DNA from: Raja brachyura
Lineage: Eukaryota
DNA: 64,000 bases
Assembly (NCBI GenBank): GCA_963514005.1
Contig: OY740790.1
Coordinates: 38,316,001 to 38,380,000, forward strand
Reading direction: 5' to 3'
Made by a program: the position numbers. Numbering within the stretch: the stretch's first letter is position 1; each line of letters opens with the position of its first letter. This document shows positions 12,001 to 15,000 of the stretch, piece after piece.

Positions 12001-15000
12001 TCGTTCGAAGAGGGCCCTGACCCTATTGTTCCAATCCCCCTCAACCTATCGCTGTGAGGCTGGATTCTCAGCCACGGTAACTCTGAAAACACCTGATGGC
12101 TGCGAAGCAATTTCAGCCATCTCATTGGCAGGCGTGTTTTAATAAATCAGGCTGTTTTTTTTCAATTTTTTATTGCAGTGGTCACGGTACTGACCAAGAT
12201 TGTCTGATGGGGTCATGGAGCCAAAAAGGTTCAGAACCACTGGTTTACAGGGATAGAGTTTGACATTATTACCACATTTCAGCAATTTGCATGTATAACA
12301 ACTAACACAGTACTAAAAGCTCCTTGAATTTTGAAGTCAATTGAATCCAATGTGTGTACATATTGTATTCTAATCTGTGTGGAATTTCTCTTGTGTAATA
12401 GAAATGAGATTTGTTTTTTGTTAAGTTTCTGCAAACACGGATATATTTATCACAAAATTATGAAGACAAACCAATGAGGAAGTTTATGTGCAAGTCGGAT
12501 TGAGCTGTCAAAGTTCTGAGGGCCAGAAAAAAAGAGTTCAGGAATCACAGGAAGCAACGGAGCATTCAGTCGGGGATATCTTTGATGACAAAGCTAAAGG
12601 AGTAGAAGGCTTCAGTTTTGCTATTTAACTATTCTGCTAGCCTTTGATTCTTCCATCAATCCCCTTTGCCTTTTGAAGATAATTTGGAGTAGTGTTAAAC
12701 AGCCAGTGGGCACTCTCTGATTTCACATCGAAAGACCATTTATCCAGTTGTGAGTATTAGTGGGCCACACAAGGTGGACATCAGAGTCGGAGCCAGAATT
12801 GTTTAATGTTCATTATATAAAGATTAGGCTGGAAATCCCGGTTGCTATTCACTCTCATTTCGAGGTCCTCACCCCAATTATAACTCCTACTGCCATCAGT
12901 GAACTTGGTACCGTCTCTAGAGTAAACTTGAGAGATGTGTGATAGAACATAGAACAGTACAGCACAGGAACATACCCTTCAGCCCACATTGTTCATGCCC
13001 TATTTCCACTGACAGTGCATTCAAGGCACTCACCACTCTGTAAAAAAACCCTTGCCCCACAATCAAGGAGATTTTACATTTTGCCCCTTTCAACTTAAAG
13101 CTATGCACTCTAATCTTTGACATTTCCACCCTGGGGAAGAAAGTCCTGTCTACCCTATCTATGTCTCTCATAATTTTATATTATTTTGTCCTTGTTAACC
13201 CCTTCTGCATCCTCTCCAAAGCCTCCATGAGTGATGGAGCATGTCTCAACTTCCATGAGGGTCAGGCAAAGACCACCCACAATCAATGTGAATCGATGTT
13301 TTTGGCTGCGCTGCTTTATGTTTTAGAACACCACAGCAGCAGTGAGATATTTTTTAATAGAAACAACTAAAAATTGCTAATCACAATGTTTTGTTTTGAG
13401 GAACAGTGAGACTACAAATCATTGTTTTTAGAGGGAATTTATGCATTTGAATGCCGCATAGTTCAGGTGATTTGATCCAGTAATTTCAGTCATAATGCCT
13501 GGCACAACATAACATGCAAGAGTTTAGATTTGCAGAATATGTGCAGAGTGACATTAGAAGCCATACAGCATTCATTTTCAGCATCGTCTGGTGAAATTGG
13601 TCCACATTGCTTTGTTTCATAGCTGCTGGCTATTTGCAGGATAAAACAGATTTTCCAAGTGTTGAAAATGAACCAAAAAAGGCGTTAACCATTTGACTTT
13701 CTATGTCGCTAACTCTACATTGAAAGTAATTAAACCATTTTGTGATTCCTCTTGGGAAAGTCTTCAAGCTCACTGCTGCCTGTCTGCTGTCACGTTCATA
13801 AATCTTACCGCTTTCTATGTCACCTTTCGTGTATGTACAATGGATAGCTTTGGCACGATTATCTGGTGAATACAGGAGGTGTGTGATACAGATGTGTACA
13901 TTGCCCTTAATCTAATGGAGGACTATCCTGTCACCATGTCATGTTGTATATTGCAGTGAAGCTGCTCTGGGACTGGACCCTTATAATTGCCACAACCAGA
14001 TCATGCATATGTCAACAGATCCATTCCAATACAGACAATAAACTCCTGTAAGACAGTTCTTTGTTCTTGCTCTCAGTTCACTTTTTTGCAGAACTGCAGC
14101 CTGCCGCCAGACTACGAAGAGGAGGCACTTAGAGTCTGGGTACTCTTAGCCCAACAATCACAAATGTTGAACTTGCTCCATCACTCATTGTCCTGTGGAG
14201 TGTATGTACCACTTCCAGTCTGGAAAGTCCTGCAAGACTCTCCCATGCTTCTTGACATCTCCTACATTCATGCAAGCCAAACGATACAGCAAGAATTTCC
14301 ACATTATCTATATCAGCTTCCCCTTGCATGCTCCCACATCCTCTATCAGATTGTTTTCTAATGGCTTTCCTGCAGGTGACCTGACATGCTTCACTATCTC
14401 TCTAGTCCGGCTGCAAATCAGGACTGTCCAATATCTCTCCAGATGAAACATGAGGCTCTTATCCAGCTTACTCAATCCTTACGATTCCACTTTCGTGTGA
14501 CAGACATAAGCTATGTCTCCTCTCTTGAGCGGTTCTCTTGGGGTGGGGTTGTTTGGGATACGGGGGTGGGAAAAGTTGAGGGGTCCATAGGCTTAGGAAT
14601 GATAATAACAAAAAGCAGAGCATTGCAAGTGTGAGGACGTGTTGGTGTTAGGCAGAGTGGTCAGTACATTTTTGAGATAATTAATTGATTTGAGGGAAGG
14701 ATGTATTGTAAAGATACAGACATACCTACAGATCTGAAGAAGGGTTTCGGCCCGAAAGGTTGCCTATTTCCTTCGCTCCATAGATGGTGCTGCACCCGCT
14801 GAGTTTCTCCAGCATTTTTGTGTACCTACAGATCTAAGTTGCTAATCAGATCATCAACTGCATCATGATCCATGACCTAAGTCATGCTGATGACAAACAT
14901 TTGTTGCGGACACCATAAATTGAACTTATTTTGAAATTGCGATGGTCCTATCCAGTTTGTGTGTATGTACCTGCATATGTGATTTTGTTTATTAATGCCA

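What the first reader, a model, noticed from the sequence alone, without database searches (positions are those of the whole stretch)
14723..14835. Family of ~90-140 bp TSD-flanked mini-elements that start at the hammerhead core
Seen: several independent insertions consist only of the module, begin within about 10 nt upstream of CTGAAGA, and have 11-14 bp flanking direct repeats: 14723/14823 (13 bp, exactly 100 bp apart), 38188/38298 (12 bp), 55454/55599 (11 bp), 63416/63532 (13 bp), 7310/7434 (13 of 14). They have no poly(A) tail, no Pol III boxes and no ORF. Inference: a non-autonomous, PLE-mobilised, ribozyme-bearing short retroelement (retrozyme- or SINE-like), or reverse transcription that stalls reproducibly at the structured motif. 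The shared 5' boundary is not what random truncation predicts.
Basis: partly seen in the sequence, partly recalled or inferred. Interest (0 to 1): 0.75.

Follow-up and report, generated by a model that had tools for sequence, protein, structure and literature searches.

The report
Mini Penelope insertions starting at hammerhead
These 87-134 bp repeats in a skate genome are very short insertions left by Penelope-like retrotransposons; they are an ordinary kind of repeat, except that nearly all of them stop at the same point just upstream of the element's hammerhead-ribozyme motif, which is unexplained.

Summary
All five repeat pairs are at the stated coordinates. Four are exact over 11-13 bp, and one matches 13 of 14. 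Exact flanking repeats of 11 bp or more arose in 0.22% of 5000 random pseudo-elements.

The module is the terminal part of a Penelope-like element (PLE) of a skate. Longer copies run upstream without a break into the C-terminus of a GIY-YIG endonuclease ORF.

The shared 5' boundary is real within this window. Of 28 significant module hits, 14 end between -7 and +3 of the core box.

An independent SINE-like or retrozyme-like family is poorly supported:
- Short copies occur in three subfamilies, and in two of them they group with long copies or inverted-pair arms.
- Their ends vary between close relatives.
- There are no tandem arrays, no tRNA-like head and no sense-strand B box.

Stalling at the ribozyme fold is also unlikely, because the cDNA has already copied the whole motif when it ends.

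My best reading is that these are dead-end by-products of PLE target-primed reverse transcription. Synthesis starts at internal sites and runs to an RNA 5' end just upstream of the hammerhead. That last step is inferred, not shown.

The parts
14736..14822 (+). Focal mini-insertion, 87 bp, flanked by 13-bp target-site duplications at 14723-14735 and 14823-14835. The core box starts at 14734. The part of the ribozyme motif after helix II is mutated.
38200..38297 (-). Mini-insertion, 98 bp, with 12-bp duplications at 38188-38199 and 38298-38309. The core box is mutated at its sixth base.
55465..55598 (-). Mini-insertion, 134 bp, with the long 3' tail. 11-bp duplications at 55454-55464 and 55599-55609.
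63429..63531 (-). Mini-insertion, 103 bp, with 13-bp duplications at 63416-63428 and 63532-63544. The strict hammerhead descriptor is intact.
7324..7433 (+). Mini-insertion, 110 bp, with a 14-bp duplication (13 of 14) at 7310-7323 and 7434-7447. It sits at the tail end of the older minus-strand copy 7468-7659.
18217..18325 (-). Short copy with the same 5' boundary. No duplication was found.
1555..1698 (-). Single insertion flanked by a 15-bp duplication (14 of 15; 1540-1554 and 1699-1713). It is made of an inverted piece of the 3' tail joined to a direct arm that starts at the core box.
23272..23459 (.). Head-to-head inverted pair: 90-nt arms, 90% complementary, 8 nt apart, with the junction inside the hammerhead. 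One arm has the long tail and the other the short end.
60682..60854 (.). Head-to-head inverted pair: 80-nt arms, 85% complementary, 13 nt apart, junction at the hammerhead. The arms are sisters in the tree.
41820..41920 (.). Head-to-head inverted pair: 40-nt arms, 83% complementary, 21 nt apart. Both arms end at the core box.
41170..41289 (.). Inverted junction inside helix II. A short inverted piece (core box to about +32) abuts a direct arm that starts at +15.
8590..8822 (+). Ordinary 5'-truncated copy, starting 143 nt upstream of the core box. Its 14-bp duplication (13 of 14; 8576-8589 and 8823-8836) shows it inserted into the tail of the older copy 8470-8562.
26017..28290 (+). Longest PLE copy. 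ORF remnants lie at 26017-26674 (end of RT, linker, start of GIY-YIG) and 27826-27990 (C-terminus of the endonuclease), split by a minus-strand LINE at about 26690-27825. The hammerhead core box follows at 28187.
61679..62090 (+). Long copy: endonuclease C-terminus remnant at 61679-61880, then the core box at 61991.
5127..5558 (.). Inverted pair of long arms (152 nt, 84% complementary, 30 nt apart). The junction lies about 110 nt upstream of each core box.

Best explanation
The mini-elements are independent, dead-on-arrival retro-insertions of the terminal 87-134 nt of a skate Penelope-like element (reverse transcriptase plus C-terminal GIY-YIG endonuclease).

How they form:
1. The endonuclease makes nicks staggered by 11-15 bp.
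2. The nicked DNA primes reverse transcription at one of two internal start zones of the element's RNA. One lies about +87 to +110 and the other about +140 to +145 downstream of the core box.
3. The cDNA runs back through the whole hammerhead motif and, in most events, ends 0-10 nt upstream of it.
4. When both target strands are primed, the result is a head-to-head inverted pair joined at or inside the hammerhead.

The most likely reason for the fixed end is that the usual template RNA begins there, at a transcription start or a processed 5' end just upstream of the ribozyme. On that reading a mini-element is a full copy of the 5'-proximal stretch of an ordinary element transcript, made whenever the enzyme initiates at the start site nearest the RNA's 5' end. 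Productive copies need initiation at a downstream repeat of that site in a longer-than-unit transcript.

Shown: PLE origin, independent insertion, clustered 5' ends, two 3' end classes, inverted pairs. Inferred: that the boundary is an RNA 5' end, and that the copies cannot propagate.
For: PLE origin:
- In long copies the module lies about 170-200 bp downstream of an ORF remnant, on the same strand.
- That remnant matches skate proteins at 64-82% identity (tblastn).
- In the matching proteins the stretch follows directly on a GIY-YIG motif.
- Relatives P0130 and P0132 carry RVT_1 plus a C-terminal GIY-YIG domain, though the GIY-YIG scores are below Pfam's cut-off.

Independent insertion: the target-site duplications against the chance control.

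Clustered 5' ends: 14 of 28 hits fall between -7 and +3. Only 1 lies between -8 and -88, and the 7 long copies reach the model's upstream edge.

Pair arms stop at the same place. Arms of a pair are each other's closest relatives, so each pair is one event.

3' ends: reading the alignment by eye, about 10 copies stop at the short end and about 10 carry a tail about 45 nt longer. In the pairs at 23272 and 60682, one arm is of each kind.

Short copies occur in three subfamilies beside long ones, and close relatives differ at both ends.

Literature:
- Frangieh et al. 2024 (PMC11167929; I read the main text). For an Anolis PLE, reverse transcription starts at two adjacent internal sites about 110 nt past the hammerhead. 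The product runs to the 5' end of whatever RNA is supplied, and both DNA strands are cleaved and extended. Ribozyme cleavage is not needed, and RNA 3' of the start site is required. Inserted copies would lack that RNA.
- Craig et al. 2021 (PMC8557442; passages). PLE insertions show 5' truncation, inverted 5'-truncated copies and an optional 30-40 bp tail.
- Schostak et al. 2008 (PMC2377424; passages). Drosophila virilis Penelope has an internal TATA-less promoter.
Against: - No RNA data exist here, so an RNA 5' end at this point is pure inference.
- In D. virilis Penelope the transcription start lies 46 nt upstream of a 75-nt intron (PMC2377424, passages). That intron ends at the hammerhead's helix I (PMC4209133, text read). 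A start right next to the ribozyme is therefore not the described arrangement.
- The Anolis work used templates reaching 126-145 nt upstream of the ORF start.
- Seven long copies show that synthesis can pass the boundary.
- Three near-identical short copies (7319, 63530, 14725) form a clade with no long member in this window.
- The exact end point is blurred. Similarity of the mini-elements to long copies upstream of the core box is weak, with best single P values of 0.046-0.13 and a combined P of 0.06.
- The sample is 64 kb.
- No full-length element lies in the window, so the terminal-repeat boundary could not be read.
Confidence: 0.5

Rival explanations
1. A leaky terminator. The template RNA runs further upstream, but the reverse transcriptase usually stops or falls off just 5' of the hammerhead. 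The cause could be the C-rich pyrimidine tract there, a bound protein, or RNA-RNA pairing of dimerised ribozymes.
For: - The sharp boundary coexists with 7 longer copies that read through it.
- Long copies carry a conserved pyrimidine-rich, C-rich tract directly upstream of the boundary.
- The Anolis ribozyme is reported to be protein-assisted, which means protein sits on this RNA region (PMC11167929, main text).
Against: - Folding the upstream 170 nt of a long copy gives no stable structure: z-score +1.66, and 194 of 200 shuffles fold at least as well.
- A block by the ribozyme fold itself should act on its 3' side.
- No stop of this kind is described in the papers I read.
Confidence: 0.2
2. 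A true non-autonomous family. Short master copies, SINE-like or monomeric retrozyme-like, are transcribed on their own and mobilised by the PLE enzyme.
For: - The clade 7319/63530/14725 consists of short copies only, with support 96/87 and short end branches of 0.02-0.07.
- 7318-7421 and 63430-63532 are 95% identical over 104 bp.
- An initiator-like word spans the boundary in long copies; the consensus is recalled.
- Vertebrate retrozymes are reported to derive from PLE terminal repeats (preprint 10.64898/2026.07.22.740005; abstract, results part 1 and discussion read).
Against: - The other short copies sit among long copies and pair arms.
- The three clade members differ in both their 5' and their 3' end points.
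- There are no tandem arrays, no tRNA-like head and no sense-strand B box.
- By analogy with the Anolis element, inserted copies lack the RNA downstream of the start site that the enzyme needs (PMC11167929).
- Only 6 copies keep an intact strict ribozyme descriptor.
Confidence: 0.12
3. Solo terminal repeats. Full-length elements inserted first, and recombination between their two direct pseudo-LTRs then left one repeat between the original target-site duplications.
For: It would give duplication-flanked units with a fixed 5' edge equal to the repeat boundary. PLEs do carry direct terminal repeats (PMC8557442, passages).
Against: - There is no full-length element in the window, against at least 13 events at the boundary.
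- The inverted pairs cannot arise this way.
- The 3' ends vary.
- Repeats of about 100 bp are poor substrates for recombination (general knowledge).
Confidence: 0.05

Closest known systems
5'-truncated Penelope-like element copies carrying minimal hammerhead motifs (Cervera and de la Pena 2014, PMC4209133)
   Same: - The motif is of the same type: core boxes, an extra unpaired base before helix II, a G-C pair closing helix II, and a tiny palindromic helix III.
- Most motifs are single and dispersed, with some pairs on opposite strands 100-700 bp apart, as that paper reports.
   Different: That paper calls them 'probably related to truncated PLEs' and gives no end-point distribution. Here the 5' ends pile up within about 10 nt of the motif's 5' edge, and the copies are as short as 87 bp.
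In vitro insertion products of the Anolis Poseidon element PAc (Frangieh et al. 2024, PMC11167929)
   Same: - Synthesis starts at two nearby internal sites about 110 nt downstream of the hammerhead and runs to the 5' end of the supplied RNA.
- Both target strands are extended.
- The optional tail equals the stretch between the two start sites.
   Different: - Those are test-tube products on chosen templates, whereas these are genomic insertions.
- In the skate, the ORF start could not be placed in the module.
- Short matches between the target and the 3' end of the element occur in 3 of 8 junctions. The Anolis start site is reported not to be homologous to the target.
Metazoan non-LTR retrozymes and their monomers (Cervera and de la Pena 2020, PMC7229834; Li, Clavereau and Pollet 2026 preprint)
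   Same: They are short, non-coding, carry a type I hammerhead, are related to PLE terminal repeats, and their monomers are regarded as dead derivatives.
   Different: Retrozymes are tandem repeats of 150-450 bp with canonical hammerheads and circular RNAs. Here there are no tandem arrays, the motif is the minimal one, and Rfam finds no hammerhead.
Schistosome Sm-alpha / Sj-alpha SINE-like elements with hammerheads (as summarised in PMC6765202, passages)
   Same: Short dispersed retroposons that bear a hammerhead.
   Different: Those carry their own promoter ahead of the ribozyme. No Pol III boxes or tRNA-like head are found here.
5'-truncated and 5'-inverted LINE-1 insertions (twin priming; recalled, no paper read)
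   Same: Target-primed reverse transcription gives duplication-flanked truncated copies and inverted 5' segments.
   Different: In L1 the inverted segment is a different part of the same RNA. Here both arms cover the same part, and truncation points are not spread out.

Membership tests
Endonuclease-positive Penelope-like element (insertion derived from one) | [quoted passage not shown] | tested here: met
   - ORF remnants lie upstream of the module in long copies.
- They are 64-82% identical to skate proteins, in which the stretch follows a GIY-YIG motif.
- Relatives P0130 and P0132 have RVT_1 plus a C-terminal GIY-YIG domain, with E values of 3e-4 and 1.5e-3, below Pfam's cut-off.
- P0001 itself is a chimeric gene model, with a LINE-type RT in its first half.
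Endonuclease-positive Penelope-like element (insertion derived from one) | Hammerhead motif near the 3' end, within the terminal repeat | tested here: met
   The motif lies 87-145 nt from the 3' end of every copy.
Endonuclease-positive Penelope-like element (insertion derived from one) | Frequent 5' truncation, adjacent inverted 5'-truncated copies, and an optional tail of 30-40 bp at one end | tested here: met
   The tail here is about 45 nt. In two pairs, one arm carries it and the other does not.
Endonuclease-positive Penelope-like element (insertion derived from one) | Partial tandem organisation that forms pseudo-LTRs | tested here: inconclusive
   There is no full-length copy and no head-to-tail junction in the window.
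Minimal hammerhead ribozyme of PLE type | CUGANGA and GAAA boxes, helix II closed by a G-C pair, an unpaired base between positions 9 and 10.1, and a 1-bp helix III with a palindromic loop | tested here: met
   - The strict descriptor is intact in 6 copies and in 0 of 50 shuffles.
- Of those 6, three also keep the palindrome and GTC.
- The other copies show decay, mostly at CpG sites.
Minimal hammerhead ribozyme of PLE type | Match to a curated hammerhead covariance model | tested here: not met
   No Rfam hammerhead family matches, either at gathering score or at E<=10. This is expected for a motif without helix III and without a loop on helix I.
Minimal hammerhead ribozyme of PLE type | Self-cleavage, as a dimer | not testable with these tools
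   It needs a cleavage assay.
Metazoan non-LTR retrozyme | Head-to-tail tandem repeats of a 150-450 bp unit | tested here: not met
   Tandem Repeats Finder finds no array of the module. The only adjacent same-strand copies, 8470 and 8627, are a nested insertion with its own duplication.
Metazoan non-LTR retrozyme | Abundant circular RNA of unit length | not testable with these tools
   No RNA data.
SINE | Internal Pol III promoter, or a tRNA, 7SL or 5S-derived head | tested here: not met
   ARAGORN finds 0 genes. B-box-like words with one mismatch fall only on the antisense strand of helix II (the consensus was recalled). No Rfam match.
SINE | Short copies form their own lineages, apart from the autonomous partner | tested here: inconclusive
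   One clade of three short copies stands alone. The other three short copies are mixed with long copies and pair arms.

The most novel reading that the evidence does not exclude
The hammerhead marks the true 5' end of the RNA that Penelope-like enzymes copy. A discrete hammerhead-headed RNA of about 100-150 nt, starting a few bases upstream of the core box, would be a preferred template. At least one lineage (7319/63530/14725) would then be a transcription-competent, PLE-mobilised mini-retroposon: a single-copy precursor of animal retrozymes. That would give the long-unexplained PLE ribozyme a role at the RNA's 5' end, for example removing a capped leader.
Probability: 0.15. Interest if true: 0.7.

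Novelty: new member of a known kind. Interest (0 to 1): 0.4.

Why it matters
Craig et al. 2021 (PMC8557442, passages) state that the function of the hammerhead in endonuclease-bearing Penelope-like elements is still unclear. Their transposition cycle has only begun to be rebuilt in vitro (PMC11167929).

A sharp, reproducible 5' end of genomic insertions right at the ribozyme's upstream edge is a cheap natural read-out of where the template RNA, or the enzyme's run, ends. If it holds genome-wide, it turns 'where does the template start, and what is the ribozyme for' into a question that 5'-end RNA mapping and a template-extension assay can answer.

For annotation, it means many 90-140 bp hammerhead hits in skate and similar genomes are complete insertion events, not eroded fragments.

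Tried and rejected
- Rfam, at gathering score and at E<=10, finds no hammerhead. The only hits are plant-miRNA-like matches to the long inverted repeats, far below their cut-offs.
- An exact 25-mer of the module in genome contigs, which holds prokaryotes only, gave 0 loci.
- Whether the ORF starts inside the module, as in Anolis, stays open. A conserved ATG lies at about +49, but in the larger subfamily the frame closes before the tail ends. The N-termini of distant full-length relatives do not match the module.
- Similarity of the mini-elements to long copies upstream of the core box is weak. I therefore do not claim microhomology at the 5' junction.
- I looked at the words just upstream of the core box: an initiator-like word, a 3'-splice-site-like pyrimidine tract followed by CAG, a branch-point-like word, and small palindromes or partial repeats of the core box. 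All were spotted post hoc in 6-7 copies, and none was tested. The branch-point-like word lies only 3-6 nt from the AG, too close for a normal 3' splice site (general knowledge).
- Ribozyme cleavage as the cause of the boundary is rejected. The cleavage site lies about 30 nt downstream of the boundary, and every mini-element spans it.
- Random truncation is rejected.
The Anolis paper's supplementary figure on genomic and RNA-seq ends, and Cervera's supplementary alignments, may bear on whether this boundary has been seen before.
- In the texts I read and in four searches I found no statement of a preferred 5' end at the hammerhead. The searches were 36 papers, 25 listed; 4 papers; 2 papers, both irrelevant; 71 papers, 15 listed.
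Full report
**What is there.** They enclose inserts of 87, 98, 134, 103 and 110 bp. In a control of 5000 random pseudo-elements of the same lengths, an exact flanking repeat of 11 bp or more appeared in 0.22%, and one of 9 bp or more in 1.3%. These are therefore real target-site duplications. In each insert the core box lies 0-9 nt from the left duplication. None has a poly(A) end.

**How common the module is.** A profile built from 13 copies finds 33 hits in 64 kb. 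Self-comparison shows that most shared similarity in the window is this module.

**What it belongs to.** The longer copies continue upstream.
- Two of them (core boxes at 28187 and 61991) carry an ORF remnant on the same strand, about 170-200 bp upstream.
- The piece 27826-27996 finds proteins of skates (Leucoraja erinacea, Rhinoraja longicauda, Amblyraja radiata) at 73-79% identity. I therefore take the window for skate DNA, not human.
- In the best hits, the matched stretch follows directly on a GIY-YIG motif.
- The top hit P0001 is a chimeric gene model. Its first half is a LINE-type reverse transcriptase.
- More distant full-length relatives, P0130 and P0132, have RVT_1 followed by a C-terminal GIY-YIG domain, although the GIY-YIG scores are below Pfam's cut-off. 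That is the architecture of endonuclease-bearing Penelope-like elements.
- A tblastn of these proteins on the window shows further remnants. The copy at 28187 in fact begins by 26017 and is split by a minus-strand LINE.
- No full-length element is present.

**The ribozyme motif.** The motif has four features: the two conserved boxes, one unpaired base before helix II, a G-C pair closing helix II, and a 1-bp helix III with a two-base loop that together form a four-base palindrome, followed by the cleavage triplet. These are the features listed for minimal hammerheads of Penelope-like elements by Cervera and de la Pena 2014 (PMC4209133; I read the text through the discussion). A strict descriptor is intact in 6 copies and in none of 50 shuffles. 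Most copies have decayed, largely at CpG sites. The focal copy at 14734 has lost the palindrome and the triplet. Rfam finds no hammerhead at any threshold, as expected for this stripped-down form.

**The 5' boundary.** I built an extended profile from seven long copies, covering -110 to +110 around the first base of the core box. It gives 39 hits at E<=10, of which 28 have E<1e-3.

| 5' end relative to the core box | Hits |
|---|---|
| -7 to +3 | 14 |
| upstream edge of the model (the seven long copies) | 7 |
| -24 | 1 |
| +6 to +15 | 3 |
| +28, +48, +63 | 1 each |

The three hits at +6 to +15 are all second arms of inverted pairs. Fourteen of 21 interior ends fall in an 11-nt bin of a 176-nt range, P about 1e-12. 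Counted as events, it is 13 of 16, P about 1e-13. Twelve of the 14 boundaries are fixed independently, by a duplication or by an abutting inverted arm. Two (18319, 29567) rest on the profile alone and could be blurred by divergence. Between -8 and -88 there is a single end. So most cDNAs that reach the ribozyme end just beyond it, and a minority go on for hundreds of bases.

**The 3' ends.** Reading the alignment, about ten copies stop within roughly +87 to +110. About ten others carry a further tail of about 45 nt, ending near +145. This matches the two adjacent internal start sites and the optional tail described for PLEs (PMC11167929, main text read; PMC8557442, passages).

**Inverted pairs.** Several units are head-to-head pairs whose junction lies in or next to the hammerhead:
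- 23272-23459 (90-nt arms, 90% complementary)
- 60682-60854 (80-nt arms, 85% complementary)
- 41820-41920
- 41170-41217

Arms of a pair are sister sequences, so each pair is one event. In the first two pairs, one arm has the tail and the other does not. The unit 1555-1698 has both arms inside one 15-bp duplication, matching 14 of 15. The Anolis enzyme cleaves and extends both target strands in vitro (PMC11167929), which explains such pairs. Cervera and de la Pena also noted motif pairs on opposite strands.

**Are the short copies a family of their own?** I made a tree of 23 copies over +16 to +92.
- 55603 comes out as sister to the long copy 8724.
- 18325 pairs with a pair arm inside the clade of the long copies 7562 and 28178.
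- 38302 groups with the pair at 23350.
- Only 7319, 63530 and 14725 form a clade of short copies alone (support 96/87).

Those three are young and close. Yet their 5' ends lie 5, 9 and 0 nt from the box, and their 3' ends differ by up to about 20 nt. That is easier to get from a longer template than from a mini-master with fixed ends. There are no tandem arrays, no tRNA-like head and no sense-strand B box. By analogy with the Anolis element, RNA downstream of the start site is needed for initiation and is not copied, so the inserted copies should be unable to serve as templates. That last point is inference.

**Why the boundary?**
- Ribozyme cleavage cannot be the cause. The cleavage site lies about 30 nt inside every mini-element.
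- A block by the ribozyme fold should act on its 3' side, whereas the ends lie past its 5' side.
- Folding the upstream 170 nt of a long copy shows nothing stable.
- The simplest reading is that the common template begins here. In vitro, the PLE product runs from the internal start site to the 5' end of whatever RNA is given (PMC11167929). Any transcript whose 5' end lies just upstream of the ribozyme would therefore yield exactly these units.

Against this reading, in D. virilis the start site is 46 nt upstream of a 75-nt intron (PMC2377424, passages), and that intron ends at helix I (PMC4209133). I have no RNA data. A leaky terminator at the C-rich tract just upstream is the main rival.

**Verdict.** The copies are ordinary in kind: very short PLE insertions, of a type already called 'probably truncated PLEs' in print. 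The fixed start point is a real regularity in this window, and I did not find it described in what I could read. It needs a genome-wide check.

Noticed in passing
1646-1672, 8440-8465, 28597-28633, 34024-34061: There is a second, weaker junction hot spot about +63 to +65 downstream of the core box. Inverted tail pieces start there in four units. Only one of these hits has E<1e-3.
   Followed up: partly
7310-7447 and 8576-8836: Two insertions sit in the 3' tail of older copies of the same family: the mini-element at 7324 at the tail end of 7468-7659, and the long copy 8590-8822 in the tail of 8470-8562. This fits the reported tendency of PLEs to insert into their own copies.
   Followed up: partly
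28160-28186, 8705-8732, 7554-7580, 61965-61990, 35292-35320: Long copies share a pyrimidine-rich, C-rich tract followed by a CAG just before the core box. It reads like both an initiator and a 3' splice site (consensus recalled). A short branch-point-like word lies 3-6 nt before the AG.
   Followed up: no
14820-14826, 8820-8826, 7430-7437: In 3 of 8 junctions read, the first 4 nt of the target-site duplication equal the bases that would come next in the element. This hints at priming by short matches at the 3' junction.
   Followed up: no
core box +45 to +50 in most copies, e.g. 28236, 8782, 7379: There is a conserved ATG with a similar short peptide in 18 of 21 copies examined. The frame closes before the tail ends in the larger subfamily, so whether it is the element's ORF start is open.
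   Followed up: partly
16547-17279 (-) and 46332-46950 (-): Two further PLE ORF remnants, covering the end of the RT through to the endonuclease, at 30-55% identity to the reference proteins. Neither has a recognisable module downstream, so they may belong to another PLE family.
   Followed up: no
1-807, 26698-27513, 43845-44085, 62963-63243: This is a LINE family with an RVT_1 ORF at 26780-27856 (-). Its 3' ends recur four times, and one copy splits the long PLE copy.
   Followed up: partly
49163-52256 (-): A run of long open frames with a weak match to a tyrosine-recombinase N-terminal domain (E 2.7e-4, below the cut-off). It may be a DIRS-like or Crypton-like element.
   Followed up: no
28529-28631 and 33956-34058: Two small palindromic tail units are 95% identical over 103 bp, including one flank. 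The 19-bp direct repeat at 33956/34054 may therefore not be a true target-site duplication.
   Followed up: partly
protein P0001 (named skate gene model): This annotated 'uncharacterized protein' joins a LINE-type reverse transcriptase to a PLE endonuclease tail. It looks like a gene model built from two repeats.
   Followed up: partly
9989-10196: A G/T-rich microsatellite-like array with periods of 4, 10, 14 and 28.
   Followed up: no
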